Assembly: GCA_964019425.1 (NCBI GenBank)
Contig: OZ025796.1
Coordinates: 620,001-684,000 of the forward strand
DNA from: Flectonema sp. DT1601
Taxonomy: Eukaryota
Length of the DNA: 64,000 nt
Direction: 5' to 3'
Shown: one piece after another, positions 28,315-56,164 of the stretch
Layout: each line of letters starts with the position of its first letter
Numbering within the stretch: position 1 is the stretch's first letter
Notes under the pieces: model-generated
Told to the model about the DNA's origin: nothing
Database searches by the model: none
The model's input: the letters and a program-made list of their open reading frames with translations, nothing else
Translations under genes and position numbers: made by a program

Positions 28315-28381
28315 GTATATACATCATTTTCTTTTATCTATTAGTAGAGGTGGCGGTATAATCACCATGGTGAAGAGAGGC

Positions 28382-28421
28382 TTCTGTACTTCTGTACTTC
28401 TGTACTTTCTGTACTTTATTG
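28382..28421 (+). other. Stuttered spliced-leader remnant (TTCTGTAC)x3 + TTTCTGTACTTTATTG
   Basis: Last 16 nt equal the 3' end of the SL at 29271-29309. Confidence 0.85.
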
Positions 28422-28478
28422 ATTTCGCAACCTAATATTGGTAAGAATCAGTGGGTACGTTTCACAGGAAAAGCAATT

Positions 28479-29272: not shown

Positions 29273-29309
29273 CCAACGATTCTAAAGCTACAGTTTCTGT
29301 ACTTTATTG
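29271..29309 (+). other. Complete 39-nt spliced-leader exon fused to kinase 5' UTR
   Basis: AACCAACGATTCTAAAGCTACAGTTTCTGTACTTTATTG has the euglenozoan SL length and conserved 3' half; not followed by the GT intron of an SL RNA gene. Confidence 0.92.
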
Positions 29310-29342
29310 CCCCTCCCCCTCCCCCGCTCCACAGCTGACAAC

Positions 29343-30263: not shown

Positions 30264-30294
30264 GGGAAGAAATTCATCATTGTTTGTTCGTATT

Positions 30295-36200: not shown

Positions 36201-39200
36201 GTTACTGTCGGAGGCCGACCGGAGTGTGGGAAGGACTACCAGACCGGACGCTGCGCCGGAGATTGGCCAAGCCGCAAGAGATAGCACACAGAAGGCAGGC
36301 AACCAGAGGGAGGTGCAAGCCCCGGAAAGCGGGACGAGGTCCACCCTGCAGGAGCCGAAGGAACTGGAGCAGACTCACGGAGGGGCAGGGGAGCCGGGGG
36401 AGGCACGAACGGAGGAACCGTCAACTGAGGAATCTGGAGTCGGAGGGAGGACGCCGGCGGAGGGACCAACTCCGGACCGAGGGAACGCAATCACGGAGCC
36501 TTCACGAGCTGAGGGACCGGGACCCACGACGAAAGAGACAGGACGGTTGCCGGGCGCCCCGGTGGTGAAGCTGGTAGTTTCGGAAGGCAAGCCAGGAAGT
36601 GTTCCAAGGTTCAAAGGACATGGCAGAGATGTGATGGCCCAGCTAGAGCGAGATATGGCGGACCTAGACATCACGAAGCGGCCGTTATTGTCCTACGAGG
36701 CGTCGGGAAAACAAGATGACAAGTGGGCCACATCGGATGTGAGGGGATTTGAGAACACGAGAGGGACGTGCTACGCCGCAGCAACAGTCTGCAGCCTAAT
36801 ATGGGCCACACCACTAATAGGGTTGATGAGAGAGAAAGAAACGGCGGATAAAACGTGCGTAGGGGGATGTCTCGCCTGTGTACTGTGGAAGATGTCTAAA
36901 GAAGACCACCCAAGACTGGACGGGTTAATGGAGGAGACACGAGTCACGATCCAGGACTTCACGGCGGACACGGTCAGGAAGGAGATAACAAGGTATTCTT
37001 TGGCAGGAGGTTCGCCATTGGCTTTCCTTAAACAGATCCTAAATAACCTGGCACTGAAGGAGTGCGCGGTGTGGGGGGGGACTCTGAGGAGCCTGTTCGA
37101 ATCCAGATTGAAAGCGACACACAGGTGTGTATGTGGGTTTGTGAGGCAGGAGGTGCAGCTGAGTTTCATGGTCTTGGACCCAAAGACCAAGCCGGAGACA
37201 GCAAAGATCATCCTCTTAGGAGGGCCGCTCGAAGAAGAGACGAAGAGTCCAACGATCTGCGAGAGGTGTAGATCGCCAAACAGAGACTGCACTGTGCAGT
37301 GGAGATTCGCCGAGATGCCGCCGATCCTGTTCGCGAAGGAGAGAGTGGAACAGACGACGAGGGCCGCCTTTCAGGTAGAGACTGAAAGCGGGCCACGCAG
37401 TTATGTTTTAACGGGGAGTGTATGTGGCAATGGGAGACATGCAATGACAATGGTAAGAACGCCGAGGAACCGATGGGCATGTGTGAGCGACGAACGGGTG
37501 CAGAGCAAAGAAGGACCAGGCACGGGGCCGCTTTATTGGGTGTATACGAGAATCGAAGGAACGGAGGGTCTGTTAAGTGAGAAGCTCCTCTCCATAGACC
37601 ACCGCATGCGGACAAGCCGAGCACTGAAGCCACGCCCAATGGACGATAAATCGGGACGAGCGAGGCGGTGGTACTTTGACCAAAAAACACAAGTAGCGAA
37701 GGAGGCGGTGGTAGAAAGGAGGGAAGAGCCAGTTCTGCATGTGGAAAAGCCGAGGGCAGAGCAACCACCATCCCCGTCGGAGCCGAAACCTTTGGAGCCA
37801 GCATCAAACGGAGACATTGCGAAACTGACGCAAGAGACGAAGGAAGAGCCACCAGTACAAACTAACCGCTCCAAAGGGGACGGTGGGCAGCAGGCGCTGC
37901 CGCCGCCCCAGCTGCTCAAGTCTGAGGCGCGGAGTCCAGAGCGGGCAGAAGGCTCAACAACGGAACCAATGCGAATGGACGGGAGCGACCAGACTAAAGA
38001 CGTCACCGAACCGTCGGCGGGGATAGGATTGCACGCAGGAGGGAATTACTCGGACACATCCCTGTCGCTATCGGAACCGCCGCCTGTGAAACCCCACGGA
38101 AATGTCGAGACTTTGGAGCCAGCATCAAACGGAGACATTGCGAAGCTGACGCAGGAGACGAAGGAAGCGCCACCAGTACAAACTAACCGCTCCGAAGGGG
38201 ACGGTGGGCAACAGGCGCCGCCGCCGCCCCAGCTGCTCAAGTCTGAGGCGCGGAGTCCAGAGCGGGCAGAAGGCTCAACAACGGAACCAATGCGAATGGA
38301 CGGGAGCGACCAGACGAAAGACGTCACCGAACCGTCGGCGGGGATAGGATCGCACGCAGGAGGGAATCACTCGGACACATCCCTGTCGCTATCGGAACCG
38401 CCGCCTGTGAAACCCCACGAAAATGTCGAGCGGATGCCACAGGGACTGAGTGCGGTGCCATTGACGCTGTCAAAGCAACCGGAGGACCAGGATAGACGAC
38501 AGACACCGCCGGCTCCCCAGCAGTCCGTATTAAAACTACAAGAAACAGGACAGGATTTGCTACAGGTCCCGGTGAAAGTAGCCGAGCGGTCGAAAGAACC
38601 GGAGGCGCCGCCTGCGGTAAAAGAAGAGTCGAACCTGCCGGCGAGGAACCTTTCACCACCGGTGTCTATTTCAACACCAAGCCAGGACGTGCGGACGCCT
38701 ACGCAGCCGTTGCGTGATCCCGAGCAGGGAGAACCGCATGCACTTGTGAAACCGACAGAGGGCGCACAGACGCAAGCGAATGGATTGGTTTCAGAAGGAG
38801 CAGCCCCACAGAAGAGCAGAAGGGAGCCGACAGAACCTAAGACGTCTAGGGAGCAAGGTCTAAAACTGGGCTTTTACGCAACAGGACCGACCACGTGGGA
38901 GACAGCACCGTGGGAAGGAGAGCAAGACCCAGAGGAGGCCCAACAAAAGAGGGAGCCACTGGTACCACAGGAAGCAAACGCTCGGGAGGAAGACCGCGAG
39001 GGATATGACGAACCGACAGCGCGTGGAACAGACGGAGGAGCTGATGTACAGATGGAGAACTATGAGAGCCAGGAAGGGGCGAACTCCCAGGAACTAATGG
39101 AGGAAGTTACAGGGGAGATTGCCGAAACGAGCGAGCCGCTAGCGTATGGAATGGATGAAGGGGGTGATATACTCATGGAGGACTGTGAACCGGAATCAAA

Positions 39201-42126
39201 CCTTTTCTGCACGCGGGTAGCGCCAGCGGCCCCGTGTCTTGGTAGCAGAGGCCCGGACGTCACCGAACCGCAGAGCCAAGGGGGTGGGACGAATATCCAG
39301 ACGCGGACCACCTGGATGGAGGGCCTGACGAACCTCGGAGACTCGTGTTACCTGAACGCCACCTTGCAGGCACTACTGAAGGGGTCGCATGTGGATTTCC
39401 AGCGGGCACGGAACACCCCTCACGTATGCGGGACGAGGTGCACAGTGTGCGCACTAGCACTGGTGCAGGGAGGTGGGTCGCAAGGAGAGATAACGAGGAT
39501 CACAAGAGAATGGATGGGAAGAGGACAACAGGACGCCCACGGAGCCCTACTACACATAGTGTCGGACCTGCAGGAAAGAGCAAGACCAGGCGACCTCTTA
39601 GCAAACGCTTTCACATGCATGGTGGCAGTAGAACGCACGTGCATATGCTGTGGCGGAGGGAGCCAATCAATCGAGCTGGACTGCGGCCTGATACTGCGGG
39701 GATGGGACCTACAGTCGGCACTGGAGTCGACGACGATACCACAGGACTACGTGTGCGGACTGTGCGGTACGGGGTCTTTGCAGGAGCGCAGGATCTTGAT
39801 GGAGGCGCCGGAAACGATGATCGTATGCATTGTGAACGAGAATGCCACGAAAATGGCGCTGGGAGAACAAGTGTCGATGCGGAACAGCAAGATACAGGCC
39901 GACTATAGGGTGTCCGCTGTGGTGGTCCATCAGGGGTGTCTGGGATCGGGTCACTACACGTCTTTCACCCTATCACCGGGCGGCTGGAGGTACCAGGACG
40001 ATGAGGTGGAGCGAGCAACAAGCTGGCGAGAGGTGCTGTCGTCTGTCCCTTACGTGCTATTCCTGCGAAGACAAGCTACAAAGGAGATGTTCTGCGCAAA
40101 TGAAGTTCCGATGATGCCACGACTAGCTCCACAGGTGGTCAGGGTAACGCCCCCAGAGCAGCACGGAATGGAAGGAAGGGATTATAGGCAAGTGAACAGT
40201 GAAATGCTCATACGGCCTGGAACGCAAAAGTCACGGACACAGTGTGAAGTACCACAATCAACACGGACCCAAAACCCACCGAACCTGCTAAGGACGGTGA
40301 AGACACTAGGTCGGTGCGAGAAGAAGAACGCCACGCGTGTCACAATACGAGCACACACAACGAAAGGCCAGAGGAGTCAACCGGCGACGCGAATGGAGAG
40401 CAAGTTCAAGCTCTATGCTATCTCGAAGGGAAGGGGACGCACTACCATCGTGAATAGCTGGGCAGAGGCCGAGAAACAGACGAAGGGACTCTCTTGCGCT
40501 GTTTATCAGGGCTTCAATAATGGAGAGGAGGCGGAGGCTTTCCTGAGAAGCACTGACCCAGAGTATAAGACAGCAGACAAGCCAGTAAAAGGCCCACGCA
40601 GAAATCGGCGGTACGCGGTCCCGTGTGGACGGCGTCCAGGAACGTACAGCACATGGAGTGAAGCCTCACTGCAAGTGCTACGCTGTCCAGGTGGGAAGGT
40701 GAAGAAGCTTTGCACGGACAGGAGAGCACGGGAGTACGTCGAAGAGCACAGAGCCACGAAAGGGTTAACGCAGCCAACACCACCACATCCAGCTGTGTAC
40801 CTTTTCTTAGGCAAAACCGGAAGGGCGTGCCTGGTGCGGAGTGGCGGAGGACCAGTGATGAAGAAGTGGCATGAGACCACAGGAGAGGAAAAAGACCCCA
40901 TGCTGGCCGCACTAGAATTGGCACTGGAATGGGTCACAGGGAAGGGCCTCCTGGAGGGACCCGTGGAAGTGCAAGCATACGCACCCTTGGAACAGTGGAC
41001 GAGAGAACGGTGGGAGAAATTCGGGGCGATAAGTAGCGTGGTAAGGGCACGAGGACTAGTGTTGAGGCTGGCGGACCTACCTGTCGAAGTAAAGCACACA
41101 GCTTACCAGTGGGTGTGCCAAGTGATGACAGGCGAAACAGAGGTAGAACAGAAACCGAAGCCAGCGGAACCAGTCGAGGAGCCGAAGGAAGGATCGGCAG
41201 ATCCCCACCATGGACGTGAGCCCCGAATAGGATGGCGCCCAAGTGCGATCCATGAGCCTGAGGAGGGAGTGCGAGGACAGTCGGAACCGGAAGCGGCTTT
41301 TAGAGATTCGAAGAAGAGGGCGAAGATCGAGCTCATAGAATGGCACTCTGAAAAGCCCATCTATGAACTGTTCTACGCAGCAACACAGAGGGAGACGAGA
41401 ACGTGTGTTGTAAGTGGCGGTGAAGTGATCCACATGTGGAGATTCCCCCTCAAGGAATGCTCGCCGAACCGCGAGGGTAAGGCGTTAGGGATCGGGATGG
41501 CGCAGCTGCTAAGTTACGGAGACGCAGTGAAGGAAATAGTGGCGTACGGCTCACTCGAGCACTCAGTAGAGTCACACCGACGATACATCGAGGTCTCGCA
41601 GAGAATGGCGCATCGACTTGGATCAACGCTGAGGCTGGAGCGCCTGCCCCCCGAAGCCAGCGAAGAGGCCTACCGATGGGTGAGAGGTGAGGAAAAAGTC
41701 GGGAGGAGATTGTTAAAGTGGAAGGAGGAGAACGGTAAGGAAGTCTCACAGGCGGTAACAAGCACACACGAGAAAAATATTGTGCCTGAAACCACCACGG
41801 AGCCTACCATGGACCATGACTCAGACAAGATGACGTCAGACTCGAGCTCGATCTGCTCCCCACCGACACAAGAAGACCGCCCCCCAGTAGGGATGTGTGG
41901 GTGCGGAAAGGAGATACCGCAAGCAGCGATCAAGAATCCGGTGAAACACCCGACGAAGGGATGGTGTGATAGGTGTGGAGAGCGGATCGCGAAGGGAACG
42001 CGGGTAGTCATGTGCGTGAAGTGTGACTACGCTGAATGCTGCGGATTGTTGGAGAGATCGCGGCGTGGGAAAGAGAAGAGGAAAAGGAAATCACGGGGAT
42101 CGCGATCGAAAAACGATGCCATGTGA
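30295..42126 (+). CDS. RLE element 1 polyprotein (~3940 aa): repeats - ZnF - OTU - ZnF - RT - restriction-like endonuclease - 2x USP-like - 2x RNase H1 N-terminal (viroplasmin-like) - Cys-rich finger
   Basis: GDGDCMFRA..WG..HYE (OTU); YRPIAVGE, DFENAFN, GAQQGDP, FLDD (CRE/SLACS-type RT); CxxC..H...C, RHN, KPADI, EREKVKKY (RLE); GFENTRGTCY and GLTNLGDSCYLNA..QQDAH..GHY..DD (USP); YAISKGR..W and YAVPCGRRPGTYSTW. Confidence 0.9.
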   Translation: MLPRNDTELTSRMVKEHPNGTAPGSYAEAGPGALTVSYSGSGHDVFGEGTAPGSCAEAGPGAFTVSYSGSGHNVFGEGTAPVSYAEAGPGALTVSHSRSGHNVFGEGTAPGSYAEAGPGALTVSYSGSGHKVFGEGTAPVSYAEAGPGALTVSHSRSGHSVFGEGTAPGSYAEAGPGALTVSYSGSGHDVFGEGTAPGSCAEAGPGAFTVSYSGSGHNVFGEGTAPVSYAEAGPGALTVSHSRSGHNVFGEGTAPGSYAEAGPGALTVSYSGSGHDVFGEGTAPVSYAEAGPGAFTVSYSGSGHKVFGEGTAPGSCAEAGPGALTVLYSGGRHKVFGEGTAPGSCAEAGPGALTVLYSGGRHDVFGEGTAPVSYAEAGPGAFTVLYSGSRHKVFGEGTAPGSCAEAGPGALTVSYSGSGHNVFGEGTAPGSYAEAGPGALTVSYSGSGHNVIGEGAAPVGCAEAGPGALALVPYSRSRHNVFGEGAAPRRYAETGPREPTLVSYTRRGHSQSKTNRTLGAGSETASTRGPGMNTTMAHEQEYTKRWRAMLELEILRDMPGLGTHMATGILPSLACQKLEPTIWLFPQPKLVGCAGTNETERYQEEITQQVRGPNRASDRWRLSPPARWHKKQEKKREKARKTKSGGRTKEERAPEDEQSTSKPRSSCKQQPHEMRGGGASCPVCEWSGTENGLLAHIDGKHKGQLGQDQWADCGMKACGHCGRAMKGTASMHPRCRKLSSSREVEGEATPSTSIELQREFPRVSVTKTKGDGDCMFRAILLAKGEWNRRVGARVLRKRLAEYMRGEERTDQWFVNGLAKEDYAVRLENKGWGDNVALQVAADQMGVVIIVWEAGRLLKMLPLRRTEDIPLWIVLDKEHYEAVLQADAEMLNRVEERAEAVYVLKLSEQTAEEAAVRIGLGTGPSAGLRGSGPYYCPRGECSRSRAQRFEGYKNWGGLLGHLNKEHLLSDRPLTEAEQQAMGVRPCTMCGCLTGSSTGVHPRCREAMALDGGEEEVQNAPWPDEKELGELPSWEEIGAAQVVVPKKLDERLTMLWARALMATLQRIAQRNDPRAWKLLLMLPKACLGTPAVRKDEKGTETHRERLTSRLEGWLRGEYVAMWSTRAKRNKRRREKETTQGERYERCCALSRRGRYAQANKCLVSSGLAPNAPEVLAAMQTIHPSPMHEKIDLEGVRTGNTVVSPEEALASLKTFPKDTGAGPSGLSVELLKQACDTGLRGLMPTLCTTLELLVRGKVPYEAAPVLAGARLIALKKEPTGYRPIAVGESLRRWAWKIVLAKIRPKIPNLLKPGGQLGVAVPSGVEAVYAIVRDYARRNRGANKAILTIDFENAFNCVSRAVFLRELASTLPELLPLASWCYERPTSLFFEDTTIPSREGAQQGDPAGPLLFSLGIKSLLEGLKKMGLDGSLWFLDDGVLMGGVDELAKAYDYLVQKASSLGLKVKEAKCVFVPLRVGLEPKGGLEKVKQESEGNFTILKLPVGSGSYCKEYLLQYVTKLKKVSESLTMLPDRHVALTQLRYCHSYGKMVYLMRSMYLEDQRSGLADFDAVVRSVLRGLVGGDMDERAHLQAELPLREGGVGLRNCGRHAAAGRAASATATRKLCVELDAQYQVDPEEWSGVCKALTLETSEECDLDLDKVVRQRELSMKIDASLKTKMVNDLKGSGDRERLAHFRAVSMPRASAWLAEASDTGTVMPSQIFRTAIRAHLGLEVLQAGQLCKRCNAKLDPRGVHAGMCNRGATPTIRHNLVRDFLAKQARVTGMSVEMEPQRILDGGRKPADILVSEAVPGTTRNWTGRPAAYDVTVIEVCSQTSLSRGSHLDARRVIQAKEREKVKKYGEECSSKGIAFVPLVFTRDGAMNEAAAAFIKAISLRTRRPAEAWRALSKEISTTLAYSWARAVEDRGELLMGGDGAPISTDLPPIFKEDEWEDEIQDLVDKMGSIGEGPDESGRLLSEADRSVGRTTRPDAAPEIGQAARDSTQKAGNQREVQAPESGTRSTLQEPKELEQTHGGAGEPGEARTEEPSTEESGVGGRTPAEGPTPDRGNAITEPSRAEGPGPTTKETGRLPGAPVVKLVVSEGKPGSVPRFKGHGRDVMAQLERDMADLDITKRPLLSYEASGKQDDKWATSDVRGFENTRGTCYAAATVCSLIWATPLIGLMREKETADKTCVGGCLACVLWKMSKEDHPRLDGLMEETRVTIQDFTADTVRKEITRYSLAGGSPLAFLKQILNNLALKECAVWGGTLRSLFESRLKATHRCVCGFVRQEVQLSFMVLDPKTKPETAKIILLGGPLEEETKSPTICERCRSPNRDCTVQWRFAEMPPILFAKERVEQTTRAAFQVETESGPRSYVLTGSVCGNGRHAMTMVRTPRNRWACVSDERVQSKEGPGTGPLYWVYTRIEGTEGLLSEKLLSIDHRMRTSRALKPRPMDDKSGRARRWYFDQKTQVAKEAVVERREEPVLHVEKPRAEQPPSPSEPKPLEPASNGDIAKLTQETKEEPPVQTNRSKGDGGQQALPPPQLLKSEARSPERAEGSTTEPMRMDGSDQTKDVTEPSAGIGLHAGGNYSDTSLSLSEPPPVKPHGNVETLEPASNGDIAKLTQETKEAPPVQTNRSEGDGGQQAPPPPQLLKSEARSPERAEGSTTEPMRMDGSDQTKDVTEPSAGIGSHAGGNHSDTSLSLSEPPPVKPHENVERMPQGLSAVPLTLSKQPEDQDRRQTPPAPQQSVLKLQETGQDLLQVPVKVAERSKEPEAPPAVKEESNLPARNLSPPVSISTPSQDVRTPTQPLRDPEQGEPHALVKPTEGAQTQANGLVSEGAAPQKSRREPTEPKTSREQGLKLGFYATGPTTWETAPWEGEQDPEEAQQKREPLVPQEANAREEDREGYDEPTARGTDGGADVQMENYESQEGANSQELMEEVTGEIAETSEPLAYGMDEGGDILMEDCEPESNLFCTRVAPAAPCLGSRGPDVTEPQSQGGGTNIQTRTTWMEGLTNLGDSCYLNATLQALLKGSHVDFQRARNTPHVCGTRCTVCALALVQGGGSQGEITRITREWMGRGQQDAHGALLHIVSDLQERARPGDLLANAFTCMVAVERTCICCGGGSQSIELDCGLILRGWDLQSALESTTIPQDYVCGLCGTGSLQERRILMEAPETMIVCIVNENATKMALGEQVSMRNSKIQADYRVSAVVVHQGCLGSGHYTSFTLSPGGWRYQDDEVERATSWREVLSSVPYVLFLRRQATKEMFCANEVPMMPRLAPQVVRVTPPEQHGMEGRDYRQVNSEMLIRPGTQKSRTQCEVPQSTRTQNPPNLLRTVKTLGRCEKKNATRVTIRAHTTKGQRSQPATRMESKFKLYAISKGRGRTTIVNSWAEAEKQTKGLSCAVYQGFNNGEEAEAFLRSTDPEYKTADKPVKGPRRNRRYAVPCGRRPGTYSTWSEASLQVLRCPGGKVKKLCTDRRAREYVEEHRATKGLTQPTPPHPAVYLFLGKTGRACLVRSGGGPVMKKWHETTGEEKDPMLAALELALEWVTGKGLLEGPVEVQAYAPLEQWTRERWEKFGAISSVVRARGLVLRLADLPVEVKHTAYQWVCQVMTGETEVEQKPKPAEPVEEPKEGSADPHHGREPRIGWRPSAIHEPEEGVRGQSEPEAAFRDSKKRAKIELIEWHSEKPIYELFYAATQRETRTCVVSGGEVIHMWRFPLKECSPNREGKALGIGMAQLLSYGDAVKEIVAYGSLEHSVESHRRYIEVSQRMAHRLGSTLRLERLPPEASEEAYRWVRGEEKVGRRLLKWKEENGKEVSQAVTSTHEKNIVPETTTEPTMDHDSDKMTSDSSSICSPPTQEDRPPVGMCGCGKEIPQAAIKNPVKHPTKGWCDRCGERIAKGTRVVMCVKCDYAECCGLLERSRRGKEKRKRKSRGSRSKNDAM
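30352..31830 (+). repeat. 87-bp (29-aa) coding tandem repeat, about 17 units
   Basis: GTAPGSYAEAGPGALTVSYSGSGHDVFGE reiterated, degenerating at the 3' end. Confidence 0.95.
37792..38430 (+). repeat. 321-bp in-frame tandem duplication between the two USP-like domains
   Basis: LEPASNGDIAKLTQETKE... occurs at 37792 and 38113. Confidence 0.9.
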
Positions 42127-42538
42127 GAAGCATGAAACGGAAAGTGAATGAACGGAAAAAATTAAATGTAAAGAAGTGAACTTGTAAAAAATGTAAAGAA
42201 GCAAACATGTTAAAAGAAAAATGAAAAAAAAAAAAAAAAAAGAAGAGTGAAAAGGAAGACAGAGTTGTATGTAAACTGTATGTAAATGTAAGAAGAAAGA
42301 AAAAACACGCTGGAAGTGGGAGTGCAACCATCAGCGCAAACACAACCACAAATATTGTTTTTTTTTTTTTCCTTTTTCTTTTCTTCGCTTCGGCGACAGA
42401 TATGGTAGGACCTAGAAAACCGGCCCAAAACTTGTGTTGCAGTTTATCTTTTTAGCGCACACTCATGTAACATAAGGATCGCTGGTTCCGAGGGTTTGCT
42501 CTCCTGCCATACTTGCCTCTCACCTCCCTCAAAAAAAA

Positions 42539-42577
42539 AACCAACGATTCTAAAGCTACAGTTTCTGTACTTTATTG
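42539..42577 (+). other. Second complete 39-nt spliced-leader exon
   Basis: Identical to 29271-29309; follows the RLE-1 poly(A) and is joined to the first 462-bp unit. Confidence 0.92.
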
Positions 42578-45535
42578 TTTTTCCCCTCCCTCGCCCCATC
42601 CCCGTCAGCGAGTAGGAAAGCGCAGCTAGGAATTTTTCCACGCAAGCGGATCCCACAACCCGACCACCCTTCCCCACGCTCACCCCATCCACCCTCCCCC
42701 ACCCCAACAAAAGAAGAAAACGGCGGCAGCCACGTGACACACTCGTGTTCGTGTAGCGAAGCGTTTCGGCGACTTCGAAGACGACGACGACGACGACGTA
42801 GAAGTGACGGTGTATGTGACTGACCTTCTTCTTCCTTATTTATTTGTTTACTTTTGTTAATTACTTCCTCTTAATTTCATTCCTCTCTTAGATTGTTGTT
42901 TATTTGCTTATTTATTTGTTTGTTTATCTGTCTGTTTATCTGTCTGTATATTCTGTTACTATCTGTTATTTTGTTACATTTATCTGTCTACTTTAGAGTA
43001 CATTTTTGTTATTGTTAAATTAAAACATCTTCTTCACAGTTTTTCCCCTCCCTCGCCCCATCCCCGTCAGCGAGTAGGAAAGCGCAGCTAGGAATTTTTC
43101 CACGCAAGCGGATCCCACAACCCGACCACCCTTCCCCACGCTCACCCCATCCACCCTCCCCCACCCCAACAAAAGAAGAAAACGGCGGCAGCCACGTGAC
43201 ACACTCGTGTTCGTGTAGCGAAGCGTTTCGGCGACTTCGAAGACGACGACGACGACGACGTAGAAGTGACGGTGTATGTGACTGACCTTCTTCTTCCTTA
43301 TTTATTTGTTTACTTTTGTTAATTACTTCCTCTTAATTTCATTCCTCTCTTAGATTGTTGTTTATTTGCTTATTTATTTGTTTGTTTATCTGTCTGTTTA
43401 TCTGTCTGTATATTCTGTTACTATCTGTTATTTTGTTACATTTATCTGTCTACTTTAGAGTACATTTTTGTTATTGTTAAATTAAAACATCTTCTTCACA
43501 GTTTTTCCCCTCCCTCGCCCCATCCCCGTCAGCGAGTAGGAAAGCGCAGCTAGGAATTTTTCCACGCAAGCGGATCCCACAACCCGACCACCCTTCCCCA
43601 CGCTCACCCCATCCACCCTCCCCCACCCCAACAAAAGAAGAAAACGGCGGCAGCCACGTGACACACTCGTGTTCGTGTAGCGAAGCGTTTCGGCGACTTC
43701 GAAGACGACGACGACGACGACGTAGAAGTGACGGTGTATGTGACTGACCTTCTTCTTCCTTATTTATTTGTTTACTTTTGTTAATTACTTCCTCTTAATT
43801 TCATTCCTCTCTTAGATTGTTGTTTATTTGCTTATTTATTTGTTTGTTTATCTGTCTGTTTATCTGTCTGTATATTCTGTTACTATCTGTTATTTTGTTA
43901 CATTTATCTGTCTACTTTAGAGTACATTTTTGTTATTGTTAAATTAAAACATCTTCTTCACAGTTTTTCCCCTCCCTCGCCCCATCCCCGTCAGCGAGTA
44001 GGAAAGCGCAGCTAGGAATTTTTCCACGCAAGCGGATCCCACAACCCGACCACCCTTCCCCACGCTCACCCCATCCACCCTCCCCCACCCCAACAAAAGA
44101 AGAAAACGGCGGCAGCCACGTGACACACTCGTGTTCGTGTAGCGAAGCGTTTCGGCGACTTCGAAGACGACGACGACGACGACGTAGAAGTGACGGTGTA
44201 TGTGACTGACCTTCTTCTTCCTTATTTATTTGTTTACTTTTGTTAATTACTTCCTCTTAATTTCATTCCTCTCTTAGATTGTTGTTTATTTGCTTATTTA
44301 TTTGTTTGTTTATCTGTCTGTTTATCTGTCTGTATATTCTGTTACTATCTGTTATTTTGTTACATTTATCTGTCTACTTTAGAGTACATTTTTGTTATTG
44401 TTAAATTAAAACATCTTCTTCACAGTTTTTCCCCTCCCTCGCCCCATCCCCGTCAGCGAGTAGGAAAGCGCAGCTAGGAATTTTTCCACGCAAGCGGATC
44501 CCACAACCCGACCACCCTTCCCCACGCTCACCCCATCCACCCTCCCCCACCCCAACAAAAGAAGAAAACGGCGGCAGCCACGTGACACACTCGTGTTCGT
44601 GTAGCGAAGCGTTTCGGCGACTTCGAAGACGACGACGACGACGACGTAGAAGTGACGGTGTATGTGACTGACCTTCTTCTTCCTTATTTATTTGTTTACT
44701 TTTGTTAATTACTTCCTCTTAATTTCATTCCTCTCTTAGATTGTTGTTTATTTGCTTATTTATTTGTTTGTTTATCTGTCTGTTTATCTGTCTGTATATT
44801 CTGTTACTATCTGTTATTTTGTTACATTTATCTGTCTACTTTAGAGTACATTTTTGTTATTGTTAAATTAAAACATCTTCTTCACAGTTTTTCCCCTCCC
44901 TCGCCCCATCCCCGTCAGCGAGTAGGAAAGCGCAGCTAGGAATTTTTCCACGCAAGCGGATCCCACAACCCGACCACCCTTCCCCACGCTCACCCCATCC
45001 ACCCTCCCCCACCCCAACAAAAGAAGAAAACGGCGGCAGCCACGTGACACACTCGTGTTCGTGTAGCGAAGCGTTTCGGCGACTTCGAAGACGACGACGA
45101 CGACGACGTAGAAGTGACGGTGTATGTGACTGACCTTCTTCTTCCTTATTTATTTGTTTACTTTTGTTAATTACTTCCTCTTAATTTCATTCCTCTCTTA
45201 GATTGTTGTTTATTTGCTTATTTATTTGTTTGTTTATCTGTCTGTTTATCTGTCTGTATATTCTGTTACTATCTGTTATTTTGTTACATTTATCTGTCTA
45301 CTTTAGAGTACATTTTTGTTATTGTTAAATTAAAACATCTTCTTCACAGTTTTTCCCCTCCCTCGCCCCATCCCCGTCAGCGAGTAGGAAAGCGCAGCTA
45401 GGAATTTTTCCACGCAAGCGGATCCCACAACCCGACCACCCTTCCCCACGCTCACCCCATCCACCCTCCCCCACCCCAACAAAAGAAGAAAACGGCGGCA
45501 GCCACGTGACACACTCGTGTTCGTGTAGCGAAGCG
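42578..45535 (+). repeat. 462-bp tandem array (6 full units plus 186 bp); each full unit has a GTATGT donor and a T-rich tract ending in CAG
   Basis: Unit starts at 42578, 43040, 43502, 43964, 44426, 44888 and 45350; units appear identical. Confidence 0.95.
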
Positions 45536-45888
45536 CTTAGCGCTTTAAAGTCTTTTAAGTCGCAGAAGTCGCCCCCGTCGCCCCCCGACCCCCACAGGGT
45601 ATTGAACCCAGGTGGACCAGAAGACAGACGGTGACAAAAACCACTGCACCAAAGTATATTGTTGAAAAAAAATTTTTATTTATTGTTTATTATATATATT
45701 AATTAGGTCATATTTATTTAGAAGAATTTGGTATTACTTGTCGTTGTTTATTTAGAAAATACTAAGGAAGAAAGAGGAAGAAAAAAAAAAAAAAAAAAAA
45801 AAAGAAATTAGATTTTGCATAGGCATACTTGCAGAGGAGGAGATAAACGCGGGTCCTTCAGTAAGCTCTAGTACATCGGCGGGGTAGG

Positions 45889-45930
<42 letters not shown>

Positions 45931-46179
45931 CATCTATCTTCGGTCTACGAACGCTTTGAGTCGGCCAGCAGTCACAAACGGACATTGAAGGCGCGGATAA
46001 TTGTTGTTGCTGTGGAAACCTTGCTCTGCTGAAGAAGGAGTTGAAATTTTCCCCACCTGCATTCTGATTCGAGTTGTCTTCGAGAGTACTTTGCTTTGGT
46101 CAAAAAAAAGTTACTTATTCATCCAGCACATACGTCCTTCTCATCTTTTCTGGAGACTGGACCGCTGGTGAACGCGCAA

Positions 46180-46475
46180 ACAGAACAAATTTTTTCTTTT
46201 GTTCTTCATTAAAACTACACTGAGACACGGTCTTCCGCAATACATCGCACGAACAGAACATATCCTTTCTTGTTCTCGTTTAAACACCGCTTTAAGACAG
46301 CGAAAAGAGCATATCCTTTTTTTTGTTCTTGTTTAAACTCTGCTTTGATACACGGTCTTCCGCTAGTCAGCGCGCGAGAAGAACATATCTTTTCTTGTTC
46401 TCGTTTAAACTTTGCTTTTAAGACCTGCAAACAGAGCATATCTTTTTTTTTGTTCCTGTTAAAACTCTTTTTTAA
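46180..46475 (+). repeat. Five degenerate AGA(A/G)CA..TGTTC..AAAC hairpin-like repeats
   Basis: Motif recurs at ~46180, 46253, 46305, 46379 and 46431. Confidence 0.6.
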
Positions 46476-46634
46476 GACAAAGCGTTACGAATCAGCCTGC
46501 GGGAGAGGAGAAGGAAGAACTCTCTCACTAGCTTTGTTTGGTGCCCGTGGTGGTGACTACCATTCTGCGTCGGAACTGTACGGGGGTGACCGCATAGACA
46601 GAAGAGTTCGGAAAGCGGAGGATACGCGAGCCAG

Positions 46635-46687
<53 letters not shown>

Positions 46688-46798
46688 ACTCCACACACAC
46701 GTACAGGGCTAACAAGGAGAAGAGCAGGTAAGTCGATTGTCTTTTTTCGGGTTCCATACACAAATCATCCACAGCGAAGAGAACGGAAAAGGAAGAGT

Positions 46799-46844
<46 letters not shown>

Positions 46845-46847
46845 AGA

Positions 46848-49800
46848 ATGGAGAAAACAATGTTACTGTGTGGGTACGTGCTGCTGTGGGCACTACTAAG
46901 TGGAACGAGGGCGCAACAGACGTCCGGAGTGGGTAAGCAGAGGTTAGCCCCAGTGCCAGGCGGATGGCACACCCCTCTTTTCACAACGCTGGACAAAGGC
47001 CCACTGTTTTCATCGCGCATCAGCCGACGCGTAACACGCCCGATCCCCCCGCACCCATTTATAACCCCCAACAGCTCAAACAGCCCCAACAATACGGCAA
47101 GCGGACGCGCTTTCCAACATGGACGAGAGGGGGTGTGGGTCCCGCGGAGGGGAACGGAAACGGCCGGGAACCGGGTGAGGCGAGACCACCCAAAGCCACC
47201 TCCAGACAAGGGAGGAAGGGAGCTCCTGAAGAGGGCGTCCCCGAAAGTGGCGTCCAAGGCGGCAAGGCGGCTGGAAAGGAGGAGGAGGAAGCTGCTGAAG
47301 GAACGGCAGGAGAGGTGGGAGCGGTGGGCGGGAGAGTTGGAGAAGTTCCACGCCAGGCGAGAGAGGTTCCGCGCGGAGACAGAGAGGCCAAGGAAGAACA
47401 AGGCGGAGACACCGAAGAAGCGACGGGCAGGGCCCGAAAGGGACTGGACAAAGCCAGGAGGGCACAAGGCGGAGCCCAGACCATGGTATGCGAGGCCGTC
47501 AGACCTGGCAGGAGGAGGGCAAAGCAAGGAGAGGACGAAGTGCCCGGTGGTGGGGTGCAGCGTCTGGGTGAGGGGTGACCTAGAGTACCACTTCAAACAA
47601 CACCTGAAGGGAGTGGTACCGGGGGAGGTAACGGCCCAGATGGCATCCGACAGACTCGGAAAGCAGATCTGCAAGGCCTGCGGGGAGCTGAGTACCGGAT
47701 TGGTGCACCAGACAGTGAGGTGTCGGGAGATGTTGGACCTCAAGGGACGGCTGGGGGTAGCGACGGGACCCACGCCGGAACTGGCAAGCCTGAAGTGCGA
47801 GGGAGCAAAAGTATTCCGGGTGATTGGGGATGGGAATTGCCTGTTCAGGAGTGTGTGCCAACTCCTAGAGACGCCAGAGGGGTGGAAGGGCAGACATGGA
47901 GAGCTCCGCAGGAGAACGGCAGGATACCTGACCAAGAACAGGGAAAGGTTCGAGGTCTTCTTCCAGGACGCGGACGCATTCGGAGTATATGCGAGGGCGT
48001 TGGAAGAGGATGGATGCTGGGGCGATGCATTGGCCCTACAGGTCATGGCAGAGGACCTACAGTGCCGCTTCGTCGTCGTGGTGAGGACGGAAACGCTGGT
48101 GGTGGAAGGGCCATCGGACCCGAAGCGGACGCTGGTCTTGACCCTGCAAAACGGGTGCCACTACGACCCAGTGGAGGCATCCGAGGACTGCGTCGCGCGG
48201 CTGCTACAGAGCGCCCGGAGGTTGGAGTTAGTGTCGCCAGGCCCGCTGTCGCAAGCAGCAGGAGGCGAGCCGGCAGTGCTGCAGACAGCCTCCCGACAGG
48301 CCCAGCTGCACGAGTGCCCCCAAGCGGAGTGCCCGAAACACAAGGGAGGCTTCGAGGAGTGGGCGGAGCTCCTAAGACACGTGGACGAGCACGCATTCAG
48401 TGGCAACCCGCTGACGCATGGACAGTTGGCGAGGCTAGGCCTCCGGGAATGTCCGGTGTGCTGTGGGATCATCGGGCAGGACCAGCCGATGCATCCGGGG
48501 TGCAGTGAGAAACTGCAGAAGGTCCAACTGGGGGACGTGTACACGGCGTTCCGGAAGCGGGTGCTGGAGAGCCAGAGCTTCCCCTCTTTGGAGGAAATAG
48601 CCAGCAGGAGGAGGCCGATAGCGAAGAAGCTGCCGGTGTCCCTGTTGCATCATCTGGGGCGAGCACTCAAGCTGTCGCTCGACCTAGTCGTGGAGCGGAA
48701 CGATGAGTGGGCATGGAAGCTGCTCTTGATGCTCCCGACATGTACACTGCGGAGGATACGGAGGGGGGGTAGGAGGTTGTCGACCAGCGATCTGACAGGG
48801 GCGGTCGACGACCTGCAAGCATGGATTCGGGGGGAATTTGAGGGACTGTGGAAAGCGGCGGCCCCCCGCAAGGCGACGGGAAGGCCAGCAGTGAAAGAGG
48901 CGGGGCAAAAAGGAAGGAACGACAGGGCCACGTCGCTAGCGAGGGAGGGTTGCCTGTCACAGGCGATCTCGGCCCTAGACGCGCCGCCGCCAGCAGAACG
49001 AACCGAGAAGGTGCTGGAGCAGATGCGCACCCTACACCCGAGGGCGAGCGGACCCCCATCGGCCACGGCAGGGCAGGAGGTGCAGATAGCAGAGGTGGAG
49101 CTGCTAGCATGCCTACGCTCCTTCCACAGGGGGTCGAGTGGAGGGCCTTCGGGCCTCGCGCCGCAACACCTGAAGGACGTGGTGGAGCGGGGTGAGGTGC
49201 CGGGGCTGGTAGCCTCGATCACGGAGGTGGTGAGGATTCTGGCGAACGGGAGGGCGCCGCGGGAAGTAGCGCCGCTGCTGGCGGGGGCGAACCTGACGGC
49301 GCTGGAGAAAGAAGGGAAGCCGGGGGAGCACCGGCCAGTCGCGGTGGGGGAAACATGGAGGCGGCTGGTGGCGAAGATCCTGTGCGGGGCATATAGGTCC
49401 CAGGCGAGGAGCTCGTTGCTAGAAGTGAGACAGCTGGGAGTAGCGGTGTCGGGGGGAGTGGAGGCGGCGGTGCACACCCTGCATGAGTTCCGCGCGGAGC
49501 ACGCGCTCTCGTCACAGAAAGTGTTCGTGAAGATAGACTTCTCGAACGCCTTCAACTGCGTGAAGAGGGGGGCGTTCCTGGATTCGACGAGGGATACCCT
49601 GCTGGAGAGCTGGGTCAGCTGGTGTTACGGAGCGCCGACGTGGTTGCTGTTTGGGGACGAGAGGCTGAGCTCGGAGGAGGGCGCTCAGCAGGGGGATCCG
49701 TTGGGTCCCTTGCTGTTCTCGCTGGCAATCAAGCCGGCGCTGCAGAAGGTGTTGGAGGCGAAGCCGGAGTTGGCGTGCTTCTACCTGGACGATGGGCTGG

Positions 49801-52800
49801 TGGCGGGCACCCTGGAACAGGTAGACAAGGCCCTCCAAATCCTGCAGAAGGAGACGGCGGAGCTGGGGCTGACGCTGAGGCCGGACAAGTGCCAGACGCA
49901 CGTGCTCGACTCAGCCCAGAACACCCTGCCCTTGGGGTGGGGGTTGGAAGGGATGAGACCCCCACTGTACAACGGGGACTTCCTGGGGGCACCGTTCGGG
50001 ACGGAGGAACACTGCCAGGAGTTCGTCGACAGGAAGGTGGCGCAGCTGGAGAAGAAAGCGGAGCTGCTAGCTGACCTGCAGGACCGGCAGGTGGCCATGG
50101 TGCTCCTAAGGCAATGCATGGGCTTCTGCAAGGTGACCCACCTGATGCGATGCTGCACGCATGGGAAAATGGACACCTCGATGCGGAAGGTGGACGAGCT
50201 GATGAGGTCCACGGCGAGCCGAGTGTTGGGCCTGACACTGGAGGGGCCAAAGTGGATGCAAGCACAACTGCCGACCCGGATGGGGGGATTGGGGCTGCGG
50301 TCATGTGCAGAGCACAGGGGAGCAGCACTATTGGGATCCCTGGAATTAGTCCAAGGGGTGAGCAAGTCACTGTGGGAGGGGTTCAAGGGGGTGCTGATGC
50401 CAGCACTGAAGAAGGGGTTGAACCTCGCCCTCCCGGAGGAGCTAAGGATAGAAGAAGACGGGCCGGGGCCGAACCCCCAGAGGCTGTCCTCGGCGAAACT
50501 GGACCAGGTCAAGAGAGACTGCCTGCTGGCGGGGGCGAATGACCCGCGCGATAAAGGGAGGCTGCTCTCCCTGCGCATGGATAAGGCGAGCGCATGGCTG
50601 CAACAAGCAGATGAAGAGTGCGCGATGGACCCAGAGACGTTCAGGATCGCATGTGGGATGCGATTGGGCGCAGCGCTGTTCGCGGAAGGGGCAGTATGCA
50701 GGATATGCTCAGGCCCACAGGATAGGCAGGGATACCATGCCTCAATCTGTATCAAAAACGGCCACGTGCACCAGCGACACGAGAGGGTGAAGGAGGAGTT
50801 CATCTCCATCTTTAAGCAGGCGGGATTGCCGCTGCTGAGAGAACCCAGCCACCTACTGGGACCCAACAAGCAGAGACCGGGGGACTGGTACTGCCAAGAG
50901 GGGCTGAGGGAGGGGAGAGGCAGAGCCTTCGACATCACAGTGGTAAACCCGGGGAAGATTAAATTGTATAAAACCCCGGGGCAAGCCGCGAGAGAAGCAG
51001 AGTCCCTGAAAGGGAACAAGTACGCGGAGCAGTGCACGAAACACGGGATTAATTTCTCGACAATTGCGCTGGAAGCGTACGGAGGGATGGGACGGGAAGC
51101 AGTGGGGACCCTGAAGAAGTTGGTGCAGATCTGCGCAACGAACTCGACGGTGCCACACCGGGAGATCGCGGGGGAGATGGCGAGGAGGATCTCGACATCG
51201 GTGGTAGTGGCGACGGCGGAAGCACTGAGAGCGAGGGAGGCGTCGGTGGCGATGGACTCAGTGAACCCATTGCCAAGGACGAAACCGCCGCCCGAGATGA
51301 CGGAGAAGCCGACATCACAAGAGAGAGAACCAAGACCGAGAGCGGAAACGGAAGAGATCCAGCAGCCGGAAGTAATGCGACAGTCGGCAGGACCGCCCCC
51401 GACGATGAGAGGTTTGCCGAACATCGGGAACTCCTGCTACCTCAACGCGTCCGTACAGTGCCTGCTGAAGGGCACGGCACTGACACAAGTGCTGACGGGG
51501 AAGGAGGAAGTGGGGATGTCGGGCCTCCTGAGTGGAGTGGTCAAAGGGAGTGGGGAGTGCCTGGAGAAGCTGTCCGAGATGTTCGACCCGCTACAAGACA
51601 GGCGGCAGGGGGAGGTAGTAGGAACCCTGACGTCCATAGTAGACGCCCTGTTGGAGGAGAAGAAAGAGGTGTGCGAACCGTTGTTCTCGGCAGTACAGCT
51701 GAAACAGCTGGTCTGCACGGGATGTGCGGACGCCTCCGGATCGACGGATGAGTTGACGCTGATCCCACTGTGTGGCCGTACACCACAAGTGAGGCTTCAG
51801 CCGACGAAGGAGAGAGTCGAGCGGTCCTGCGAGAAGCTGTGCGGCAGCAATGAGGCCACGCTGGAAGAGAGTTTCGCCTCGCTCCCAAGCTCCTTGATCT
51901 TCCAGAGAGACAAGCAGGACACGCAAGGGTCCTTGGGATGGGAAGAGCGCTTCCAGGTGCAGGTCGGGGAGAGGGTGATGACGTACCAGCAAACGGGAGC
52001 GATCGCACACCTCGGGAGTGACAACGCGGGGCATTACGTGTCATACACGTGGGACGGAGTAGGCTGGCAGAAGCAAGACGACAAGGCAATAAGCCAAGTG
52101 TCGACAGAGGAGATCCACGGGACGAAACCAGTAGTAGTGGTCTACTCGAGGGTGGAGGGATCGACCCAAGAGGACGTCGGGGTGCCGGTGAGATGGATTC
52201 CGGTGGCGAACAAGGACCGGATGGAGGTACGCGAGGCACCGCCGTCGGAGGAGGACACCGCGGGGTACACGTCCAGGGAAGAGGCGGAGTGTGTCCTCCG
52301 GACGCGAGTAGTAGGGGGGCAGACGCAGCGCAAGCTGCTCTTACTGGTATCGAGCGTCTGGAACGCGGAGATGGAGAAGCTGGGGGCGGCAGCATGCCTG
52401 ATACACATGGGAACGCTCGACAGGAGGTTCACGTGGTCGGGCTGCCTACCGACATGGGACGAAGCGACTGCGGAGTACGTGGCAGCGCTGCTAGGGCTCA
52501 ACGCGATCAGGGAGAGATCGCAACTGCTGGGGGGTGAGACACAGATCGAGGTGGTCACACCGCAGCAGGGGTGGGGAGCCGAGCAGCAGGAGGCGCTGAA
52601 GTTGGTAGCGCTCCCGTCGGTGATAGAACACCAGGTGACGGAAAGCTCACGAGGGGTGGAGAACCTGGCCCTCTGGGAAGCGGAATCGGCGGCATGGGAC
52701 GAGCCGGTGGAACTCTCGGAGGACGGGCTCGACTACTTGGTGATCGAGCTGGAGATGAATCTGGGGCTGTCCCAATTGAGGGGAAAGGCGGTGGAACCGG

Positions 52801-55370: not shown

Positions 55371-56099
55371 GGACTCCACGAAGGAGGTCTCAAGAGTCGA
55401 GGAAAAGACAGAGCCAAGACCCCAGAGCCAACCCAAAACACATGGTAGAGGACGAGGGAGAACAAGAGCGGGAGCGAGGTTAGAAACGTGACCAAAGCCC
55501 CCGCGAAGCAGGAGACACAACCTGCAACCAGACCCCCCCAAAGAAAAAAAACCCCGGTCAACGAGGCAAACTCGGACCAAAACATGCTTTTCACCCCCCC
55601 CAGGAAACACCGACCAGTGGAGCCAAAGGCCGCACACATATTATAAAAATCAAAGGCCGCCCCCCAACCCAAGAAAAGGATGAAAAACTTTCAAGCGAAA
55701 AAACTTGACGTCCGTACGCCCCAGAGATCAAAGGACGGACGACTCACACCCCCTTCTTTCGCCCCATTTTATTAACTGGTACAGCGACAAATGTAAAGCT
55801 GGGTAGACGACGAATTATCTTTTGTGCACAGAGACAAGGGGTCCATGAGAACAAAGGATCAAGAGAAGAAGTGCACATTCCCCATCCCAAACCCAGAAAC
55901 ATGAGAACTCATTAAATTGAAGGGCCATGTCTTTTCAAGTCGAAAAATGCTTAAATGCTAAAGAAGACTGTCGTCCCCAGCTCGCGGGTTTTCCCTGTCG
56001 CTGTATGTCGAGACAACGATCAGAGTCAGTAGAAAGATTTTACAAATTTGTTGTAAAATGAGAAAGGACAAAGAAAGTAGTTTCCATTTTATCTTCCCG

Positions 56100-56159
<60 letters not shown>

Positions 56160-56164
56160 AAAAA

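What the first reader, a model, noticed from the sequence alone, without database searches (positions are those of the whole stretch)
42539..45535. SL joined exactly at the AG acceptor of a 462-bp tandem array: a renewable trans-splicing cassette
Seen: units 2-7 are preceded by a long T-rich tract ending TTCTTCACAG, while in unit 1 the SL replaces that sequence precisely at the AG. Each full unit also has a GTATGT donor (42812 + n*462) like the host introns at 8410/8541, yet these intron-like halves are retained. Inference: the RNA was trans-spliced at one unit and then reverse transcribed. An array of acceptors lets each new copy be capped again from read-through transcription even though the used acceptor is lost each cycle, analogous to monomer arrays in rodent L1 5' UTRs. 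Assignment of the array to RLE-2 is likely but unproven, since 1.3 kb with A-tracts intervenes.
Basis: partly seen in the sequence, partly recalled or inferred. Interest (0 to 1): 0.9.

Follow-up and report, generated by a model that had tools for sequence, protein, structure and literature searches.

The report
Retrotransposon leader with spare splice acceptors
In a marine protist genome the host's mRNA leader sits in the DNA joined to a run of identical repeats that each end in a splice-acceptor-like site, and this run is likely the front end of a giant jumping gene, where it would give each new copy spare places to be cut out of longer transcripts and capped again.

Summary
A complete 39-nt euglenozoan spliced leader (SL; 42539-42577) is joined exactly where units 2-7 of a 462-bp array (six full units plus 186 nt, all identical) have TTCTTCACAG. 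Public runs hold the SL RNA gene and the unit, so neither is invented. The host is a Flectonema-like diplonemid.

New evidence ties the array to RLE-2 (a SLACS-like RT/RLE element). ATG is the only trinucleotide missing from the 1,498 nt between the last acceptor and the in-frame start codon at 46848 (0 of 5,000 shuffles).

Best reading (0.5): a full-length RLE-2 copy whose RNA was trans-spliced at one array acceptor and kept six spares. The store is consumable, and renewal by re-expansion is only inferred. The GTATGT donor is weakly supported.

Rivals: capture of a host RNA, as happened at neighbouring RLE-1, which carries an SL-tagged host kinase mRNA (0.25); or a neutral tandem duplication of a kind described beside Diplonema genes (0.2).

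No second full-length copy, RNA reads or long reads could be examined. Verdict: a new variant of known 5'-end renewal strategies; interest 0.55.

The parts
42539..42577 (+). Complete 39-nt spliced leader (SL) exon in DNA, directly behind the 8-A tail of RLE-1
   Evidence: SL RNA gene with the same exon and a GT donor in runs X1, X4 and L006
42578..45535 (+). 462-bp tandem array: six full units and 186 nt of a seventh, all identical; C-rich first half (59% GC), T-rich second half (26% GC) ending TTCTTCACAG; six spare acceptors ending at 43039, 43501, 43963, 44425, 44887, 45349
42812..42819 (+). GTATGT donor-like motif (repeated every 462 nt, six copies); it holds the only ATG of the unit, followed at once by TGA
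   Evidence: donor status weak
45536..46847 (+). Rest of the inferred RLE-2 leader: four segments ending in A23, A39, A50 and A40, no ATG
46193..46496 (+). Second, degenerate repeat (125-bp period, about 2.2 copies, 78-81% matches) inside the leader
46728..46774 (+). 47-nt CAG|GTAAGT...CCACAG segment; its AG lies 73 nt before the start codon, a possible acceptor for a short-leader mRNA
   Evidence: sequence; function inferred
46848..55370 (+). RLE-2 ORF from the first ATG: OTU protease, RT, CCHC plus PD..D..K endonuclease-like motif, UCH protease, two RNase H1 N-terminal domains
55371..56157 (+). RLE-2 3' UTR and A58 tail
29271..30263 (+). Second complete SL followed by an uninterrupted 306-aa host kinase ORF (98% identical to a Flectonema neradi transcript protein of the same length), placed 31 nt before the first in-frame ATG of RLE-1
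30295..42538 (+). RLE-1 (same domain types as RLE-2, 30% identical over 1,372 aa) with 3' UTR and short A tail; its 3' end is fixed by a second, 5'-truncated copy at 27018-27521, so the SL and array are not its tail
29266..29272 (+). Left copy of the apparent 7-bp target duplication TAAAAAA (last two A shared with the SL)
56158..56164 (+). Right copy of TAAAAAA; the interrupted APE-LINE ORF1 resumes here in the same frame

Best explanation
A complete spliced leader is joined at the AG of a 462-bp tandem array, and SL plus array are likely the 5' end of a full-length copy of the retrotransposon RLE-2, whose RNA was likely trans-spliced at one array acceptor and reverse transcribed with six spare acceptors still in place. 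Steps: (1) RLE-2 is transcribed by read-through in a polycistronic genome (inferred from host biology). (2) The SL was added at a unit's AG, which capped the RNA and discarded everything upstream (joint shown, process inferred). (3) The downstream acceptors were skipped, so the copied RNA kept them (shown in the DNA). (4) The 4.3-kb leader is purged of start codons, so a ribosome scanning from the cap would first meet the RT start codon, passing only six ATG-TGA start-stops (purge shown, scanning inferred). (5) Target-primed reverse transcription put SL...A58 into an A-run (tail and target duplication shown, mechanism from established knowledge). (6) Each cycle uses up at least one acceptor. 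The store would be refilled by tandem re-duplication of the unit, a mutation type common at diplonemid gene 5' ends (inferred, untested). It works like a ribozyme or L1-monomer 5' end, but uses the host spliceosome.
For: Exact SL-to-AG joint. ATG is the only one of 64 trinucleotides absent from 45350-46847, the next rarest occur 7 times. With A-tracts and the duplicated part of the 125-bp repeat left out: 0 ATG in 958 nt against a mean of 8.1, and 0 of 5,000 shuffles reach 0. CAT occurs 22 times in the same 1,498 nt, so the purge is strand-specific. The 1,724-nt gap is the longest ATG-free stretch on the + strand (next 608; longest on the - strand 971), and the 3' UTRs of both RLEs are not depleted (11 ATG each). 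The first ATG is in the RT frame. No SL relic lies between SL and unit 1, so this cycle used an array acceptor, not the SL's internal AG (sequence). A-tracts also occur inside the RLE-1 3' UTR (A18, and A11 in the second copy), so A-tracts do not by themselves mark separate cDNAs. Units are identical within the window, while each of 4 of 4 laid runs holds a slightly different variant (2-4 substitutions, some with small indels), which fits rapid turnover. Internal repeat regions are typical of CRE-clade elements (PMC12278014, passages). Two APE-LINE copies in the window also start with an SL 3' piece and keep a GT...CACAG segment before their ATG.
Against: Only one copy was seen, and there is no RNA evidence. 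The ATG test was chosen after looking at the data, and it covers the stretch from the last acceptor onward; the unit alone is not significantly depleted (1 observed, 4.0 expected, P 0.06). The neighbouring RLE-1 shows an SL arriving with a captured host mRNA full of ATGs. [quoted passage not shown] The SL has its own internal CTACAG, and there is an acceptor-like AG at 46774, so recapping need not depend on the array. Identity of the units may be partly produced by consensus polishing.
Confidence: 0.5

Rival explanations
1. The array is a host locus (a repeated 5' gene end or a tandem non-coding transcription unit). One partly processed, SL-capped RNA of it was joined in front of RLE-2 once, either by read-through from the host acceptor (5' transduction) or by the RT jumping from RNA to RNA. 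The A-tract-ended pieces would be separate captured RNAs.
For: RLE-1 next door carries exactly such a passenger: SL plus a complete host kinase ORF. The whole 27-kb chain has one pair of target duplications and several A-tracts. About 400-bp arrays of 5' UTR plus intergenic DNA are described beside D. papillatum genes. R2-type RT jumps between templates in vitro (PMC8857657, abstract).
Against: No host ORF follows the array. The ATG purge runs across all four A-tract segments and stops at the RLE-2 start codon, which unrelated captured RNAs would not show. Diplonema 5' UTRs are about 70 nt, not 430-1,500.
Confidence: 0.25
2. The array does belong to the RLE-2 leader but is a neutral tandem duplication, or serves as a promoter or spacer. 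Recapping normally uses host acceptors upstream, the SL's internal AG (dinoflagellate-style recycling) or the AG at 46774.
For: Such duplications are common at diplonemid gene 5' ends. Relic SLs made at an internal AG are well known in dinoflagellates (PMC12014239, passages). The two LINE copies start with SL pieces that begin just behind the SL's internal AG. A second, decayed repeat lies in the same leader.
Against: In the one cycle that can be read, the array acceptor was used and no SL relic was made. The units are identical, not decayed to 71-96% as in the described host case.
Confidence: 0.2
3. The real locus has one or two units and the assembler inflated or homogenised the array.
For: 0 differences across 2,958 nt; no long reads available.
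Against: In 3 of 4 laid runs the unit is one contig of unit length plus 30 letters (486, 492, 492), the shape expected of a closed tandem loop. The fourth bridges the unit junction with 340 and 75 letters on the two sides. Even two units would leave the SL-at-AG joint intact.
Confidence: 0.05

Closest known systems
CRE-clade non-LTR retrotransposons of trypanosomatids (SLACS, CZAR, CRE1/2) and the 745-member SLACS-like orthogroup OG0000024 of Diplonema papillatum
   Same: Single long ORF, RT plus restriction-like endonuclease motif, poly(A) tail, internal repeat regions (PMC12278014, passages); an association with the SL; a hit in Papus ankaliazontas, whose genome also expanded OG0000024.
   Different: Not inserted in an SL RNA gene between nt 11 and 12 (PMC5814959, passage). 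The SL is complete, has no SL intron behind it and was added to the RNA. The target is an A-run in another LINE. Extra OTU, UCH and RNase H1 N-terminal domains.
SL-tagged retrocopies: dinoflagellate retrogenes with relic SLs (PMC12014239); SL-containing transposable elements in Schistosoma mansoni (PMC5832876)
   Same: An SL in genomic DNA marks reverse transcription of a trans-spliced RNA.
   Different: Dinoflagellate copies are recapped at the AG inside the old SL and accumulate relics. Here there is no relic, and a separate array of acceptors follows the SL.
Repeat-bounded genes of D. papillatum (e.g. DIPPA_19968; PMC10161547 section 7)
   Same: [quoted passage not shown]
   Different: There the copies are 71-96% identical, stand before a host gene and are left out of the mature mRNA. 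Here they are identical, the first ORF is a retrotransposon, and the copied RNA contained them.
5'-end devices of other non-LTR elements: HDV-like ribozymes of R2 and L1Tc/Pr77, twister ribozymes of Perere-3, repeated promoter monomers of mouse L1
   Same: They free the element from a read-through transcript or renew a 5' end that is lost in copying (PMC5814959, passages; PMC8501958, abstract).
   Different: L1Tc transcripts are unspliced, and L1 monomers are promoters. Here the proposed device is a bank of spliceosomal acceptors using the host SL. No ribozyme or structured RNA was found.
Cer1 (C. elegans) and NeSL-1
   Same: Retroelement RNAs that are SL trans-spliced, with splice sites skipped in the full-length RNA (Cer1: PMC3315495, passages). 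NeSL-1 use of an acceptor is recalled, not seen in any call.
   Different: In Cer1 the full-length 8-kb RNA is not trans-spliced, and there is no acceptor array.

Membership tests
CRE clade (SLACS/CZAR/CRE1) | Single ORF with RT and restriction-like endonuclease motif | tested here: met
   RVT_1 hit; CCHC, RH, PD..D and K motif columns shared with homologues (the motif definition is recalled)
CRE clade (SLACS/CZAR/CRE1) | Poly(A) tail and target-site duplication | tested here: inconclusive
   A58 tail present; a 7-bp A-rich duplication flanks the whole 27-kb block, not RLE-2 alone
CRE clade (SLACS/CZAR/CRE1) | Internal repeat regions | tested here: met
   462-bp and 125-bp repeats before the ORF, if the leader is RLE-2's
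CRE clade (SLACS/CZAR/CRE1) | Site-specific insertion in SL RNA genes (nt 11/12) | tested here: not met
   Complete SL without its intron; flanks are a LINE ORF1
CRE clade (SLACS/CZAR/CRE1) | RT phylogeny grouping with named CRE elements | not tested
   No named SLACS/CZAR sequence came from any call. PDB gave only weak R2 hits, best E 2e-6. I therefore call it SLACS-like, not a member.
SL RNA gene array | SL exon followed by a GT donor and SL intron in every repeat | tested here: not met
   One SL only, followed by TTTTTCCCC; true genes have GTACAG or GTATGG behind the exon
Dinoflagellate-type recycled retrocopy | SL in DNA at the 5' end of a poly(A)-ended insert | tested here: met
Dinoflagellate-type recycled retrocopy | Relic SL behind the newest SL | tested here: not met
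   None at 42578 or 29310
Diplonema repeat-bounded host gene | Unit made of intergenic acceptor DNA plus 5' UTR, in tandem | tested here: met
   Array ends at unit position 186, so the unit can be read as 276 nt upstream plus 186 nt of UTR
Diplonema repeat-bounded host gene | A host ORF follows the last unit | tested here: not met
   No ATG until the RLE-2 start
Rodent L1 monomer array | Units act as promoters | not testable with these tools
   No expression data
Rodent L1 monomer array | Unit number varies between copies | not testable with these tools
   No whole genome is held for this window and no second full-length copy was found
Tandem snoRNA, ribozyme or other structured RNA cluster (incl. 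retrozymes) | Rfam match or stable fold in the unit | tested here: not met
   No Rfam hit in the unit (4 chance-level hits, E 4.6-8, all outside it). The unit folds worse than 99 of 100 shuffles, z +2.65.

The most novel reading that the evidence does not exclude
Diplonemid SLACS-like retrotransposons have left SL genes and solved the 5'-end problem with a self-refilling magazine of trans-splice acceptors. Every cycle spends one unit to take a host SL cap, splicing at the remaining units is held back so that the template RNA keeps them, and tandem re-expansion reloads the array. SL-started leaders with retained GT...AG segments would be a shared design of unrelated retroelement classes in this genome.
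Probability: 0.35. Interest if true: 0.8.

Novelty: new variant of a known kind. Interest (0 to 1): 0.55.

Why it matters
In genomes transcribed as polycistrons a retrotransposon must be cut out of a long RNA and capped, yet trans-splicing destroys the acceptor it uses. Known answers are ribozymes, internal promoters, or living inside SL genes. A bank of spare acceptors would be a further answer. It makes a sharp prediction: SL position and unit number across copies should record the number of cycles. It also offers a natural reporter for how diplonemids choose between trans-splicing, cis-splicing and skipping. The complete SLs in DNA show that full-length RNAs are copied to their cap, and that the same machinery retroposes host mRNAs, a route to gene duplication in diplonemids. 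If a rival is right, it is an ordinary retrocopy of a known repeat type.

Tried and rejected
Whole genome: none held, so other copies could not be read.

Collection scans for other copies:
- Unit 20-mer in metagenome contigs: 1 hit, a chance match in a 65%-GC contig with no further similarity.
- RLE-2 RT in viral contigs: 0 relatives.
- Unit junction in viral contigs: 0.
- SL in prokaryote genomes: 1 contaminant SL gene contig.
- Protein search found four short decayed pieces close to RLE-2 (P0036, P0046, P0054, P0055; 73-100% in parts), so the family is multicopy, but their DNA context was not available.

Depth figures against my reading, kept here because contig depth is no copy number and holes prove nothing. 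The unit lay at depth 10.5 in X1 and 19.6 in X3 with no RLE-2 piece laid; in X2 it was 2.2 against 2-3.1 for the RLE-2 3' part; in X4 9.4 against 2-4.2. No listed piece (22 of 70 shown; 20 of 29 loose ends shown) joins the array to the SL, to 45536 onward, or across an A-tract. If real, this would mean longer arrays or arrays apart from RLE-2 in some strains. A finer look at 44860-47700 in public runs was not obtained, so junction-spanning evidence is open.

Readings rejected:
- Unit as protein gene: its only ATG is followed by TGA. The 234-nt exon-like half is open in one frame when repeated but has no start.
- Structured RNA or ribozyme.
- Rolling-circle copy of a spliced circle: back-splicing would give 234 nt and a lariat 228 nt, not 462 (inference).
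- Array as the RLE-1 tail (second RLE-1 3' end).

Protein Atlas gave no answer (machine unreachable). Earlier findings of this scan: nothing on this locus or unit.

Full report
1. The observation. The array runs from 42577/8 to 45535 with period 462 and 6.4 copies. Units 1-6 have no differences and unit 7 stops after 186 nt. Units 2-7 follow TTCTTCACAG; unit 1 follows a 39-nt sequence ending TACTTTATTG. That sequence is a real spliced leader: 2 of the 4 public runs laid (X1, X4; the four best of 20 listed) hold it with an upstream flank and GTACAG behind it. Locus L006 holds it with GTATGG beside 5S-, tRNA- and U6-like sequence (the RNA types were read by eye except for matches to the window's tRNA). 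It differs at 2 of 39 places from a listed euglenozoan SL (PMC3795323, one passage). A random joint would fall behind an AG in 19 of 462 and behind a CAG in 4 of 462 positions. The donor claim is weaker: GTATGT appears in 8% of shuffles of the unit and has T at -1, against G at 5 of 5 host-region sites. The unit is not an artefact. In 3 of 4 runs it is a single contig of unit length plus 30 letters, and the fourth bridges the junction; each run has its own slightly different variant. The copy number here is unverified.

2. The setting. The host is a diplonemid: the kinase at 29343-30263 is 98% identical over all 306 aa to a Flectonema neradi transcript protein. The window is a pile of retroelements. 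RLE-1 (30106-42126) and RLE-2 (46713-55370) each encode OTU, RT, UCH and RNase H1 N-terminal domains and an endonuclease-like CCHC/PD..D..K region, and are 30% identical over 1,372 aa. The chain SL-kinase-RLE-1-A8-SL-array-four A-ended segments-RLE-2-A58 interrupts ORF1 of an APE-type LINE. An uninterrupted relative at 1482-2804 (minus strand) matches both flanks, the frame continues across the block, and TAAAAAA is duplicated at its ends. A second RLE-1 3' end at 27018-27521 stops at the same A tail, so the array is not RLE-1's tail. Whether the block came in one event, by nested insertion into A-runs, or by template jumping cannot be told from one locus.

3. Does the array belong to RLE-2? 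There is no ATG on the + strand between 45124 and 46848, the longest such gap in the window (next 608 nt; longest on the - strand 971). CAT occurs 22 times in 45350-46847, and both RLE 3' UTRs have 11 ATG. ATG is the only trinucleotide absent from that stretch. With A-tracts and the duplicated part of the 125-bp repeat left out, 958 nt hold 0 ATG against 8.1 expected, and 0 of 5,000 segment-wise shuffles reach 0. The first ATG, at 46848, is in the RT frame. The only ATGs of the whole 4.3-kb leader are the six inside GTATGTGA, each followed by a stop. This is what a scanned 5' UTR looks like, and it spans all four A-tracts. Internal A-tracts also occur in the RLE-1 3' UTR. Caveats: the test was chosen after seeing the data, the unit alone is not significantly depleted (P 0.06), and no public contig was seen to join the array to its flanks (see Tried and rejected, where depth figures that do not favour a strict link are given).

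4. How it most likely works. RLE-2 is read through as part of a longer transcript and is released and capped by SL trans-splicing at an array AG (inferred; polycistronic transcription and SL addition in Diplonema from PMC10161547, passages). Because the SL replaces everything upstream, the used acceptor is lost. The copy seen kept six more. No relic SL sits behind the SL, so in this cycle the array, not the SL's internal CTACAG, was used. The RNA copied had skipped all downstream sites; skipping of consensus sites in a full-length retroelement RNA is described for Cer1 (PMC3315495, passages), and trans-splicing at acceptors with upstream donors is common in Schistosoma (PMC5832876, passages). 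As built, the store lasts at most six more cycles. Renewal needs re-duplication. Identical units here, against variants about 1% apart in other data sets, fit fast turnover but do not prove it. I put the whole at 0.5, and the link of array to RLE-2 alone at about 0.7.

5. Rivals. (a) Host RNA capture, 0.25: RLE-1 begins 31 nt behind a complete, SL-tagged host kinase ORF, so this happens here, and R2 RT can jump templates (PMC8857657, abstract). Against it is the ATG purge and the lack of a host ORF. (b) Neutral duplication inside the leader, 0.2: D. papillatum has dozens of genes with tandem repeats of 5' UTR and intergenic DNA, one of about 400 bp in 12 copies (PMC10161547, section 7 read whole). 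The unit here fits that pattern if cut at position 186. (c) Inflated assembly, 0.05.

6. Comparison with what is known. CRE-clade elements have one ORF, RT, RLE, a poly(A) tail and internal repeats, and insert in SL genes (PMC12278014, passages; nt 11/12 from PMC5814959, passage). RLE-2 fails the target test and was not placed on a tree, so it is SLACS-like only. D. papillatum has 745 SLACS-like RT proteins (supplement file 5). SL-tagged retrocopies are known from dinoflagellates (PMC12014239, passages) and suspected for 6 Schistosoma elements. 5'-end devices are known as ribozymes and promoters (PMC8501958, abstract). PMC4640811, PMC8061765 and PMC3636483 were seen as passages and added only background. 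I found no description of an acceptor array in a retroelement leader in searches. The library lacks most older subscription papers (the original SLACS, CZAR and NeSL-1 papers were not read). Seven supplementary files of PMC10161547 were searched as text with hits only for SLACS; its long Additional file 1 on repeats and SL sites may not have been among them and could bear on novelty.

7. Verdict. Observation confirmed; interpretation partly supported; a new variant of a known kind. Interest 0.55, limited by a single copy, no RNA data and an ordinary source for the repeat. If the self-refilling magazine is true (0.35) it would deserve 0.8.

Noticed in passing
window 29271-30263 and 30295-42538: Complete SL plus an intact 306-aa host kinase ORF (98% to a Flectonema neradi protein) fused 31 nt before RLE-1: a retroposed host mRNA riding on the element, by 5' transduction or template jump.
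   Followed up: partly
window 28381-28481 (+) and 2790-2733 (-): Two copies of an APE-LINE begin with a 3' piece of the SL that starts just behind the SL's internal AG (scores 16 and 12.5; best control 7), then 19 nt, a near-identical 27-nt GTAAG...CACAG segment and the ATG 11 nt later. The + copy has three extra 8-bp TTCTGTAC repeats in front. A second retroelement class with an SL-started leader.
   Followed up: partly
window 30106-42126 and 46713-55370: Both RLE elements carry two kinds of deubiquitinase-like domain (OTU before the RT, UCH after the endonuclease) and two RNase H1 N-terminal domains, in ORFs of about 4,000 and 2,900 codons. None of the fetched shorter homologues matched the OTU or UCH parts.
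   Followed up: partly
L002-L005, L009, L011 (three IMG/VR contigs): Giant-virus contigs carry genome-encoded euglenozoan SLs: 6 exact 3'-core matches plus 1 degenerate, each with AAAA[AT]TGA shortly upstream (background about 0.007 per 30 nt) and, where inspected, an ORF behind. One contig has four copies identical to this window's SL plus VLTF3 and A32 genes, which suggests a host with this SL, possibly a diplonemid. Similar cases were already noted by this scan.
   Followed up: partly
window 29266-56164: The whole 27-kb chain of SL- and poly(A)-bounded pieces sits in one A-run of a LINE ORF1 with one 7-bp duplication.
   Followed up: yes
window 46848-46920: The RLE-2 protein starts with a hydrophobic stretch that looks like a signal peptide (by eye, not tested), odd for a retrotransposon.
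   Followed up: no
window 30352-31822 and 37790-38430: 17 copies of an 87-bp (29-aa) in-frame repeat and a 321-bp in-frame duplication inside the RLE-1 ORF; variable columns show no third-position excess (15/11/15).
   Followed up: partly
window 57087-57128: A 2A-like peptide (motif recalled) at the start of LINE ORF2, as in L1Tc/ingi-type elements.
   Followed up: no
window 8902-8973 and 28243-28314: Two tRNA-Gly(TCC) genes on the - strand, each within about 70 nt of a retroelement end, possibly tRNA-proximal targeting.
   Followed up: no
window 61991-64000 (-): RT with a viral-polymerase C-terminal (RNase H-like) hit, possibly a TATE/DIRS-type element.
   Followed up: no
window 20080-23013 / 23583-26516: 2.9-kb tandem duplication (97%) of a frameshifted LINE.
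   Followed up: no
L006: A 2.6-kb contig in a bacterial MAG is a euglenozoan SL RNA gene cluster with tRNA-, 5S- and U6-like sequence: eukaryotic contamination of that bin.
   Followed up: partly
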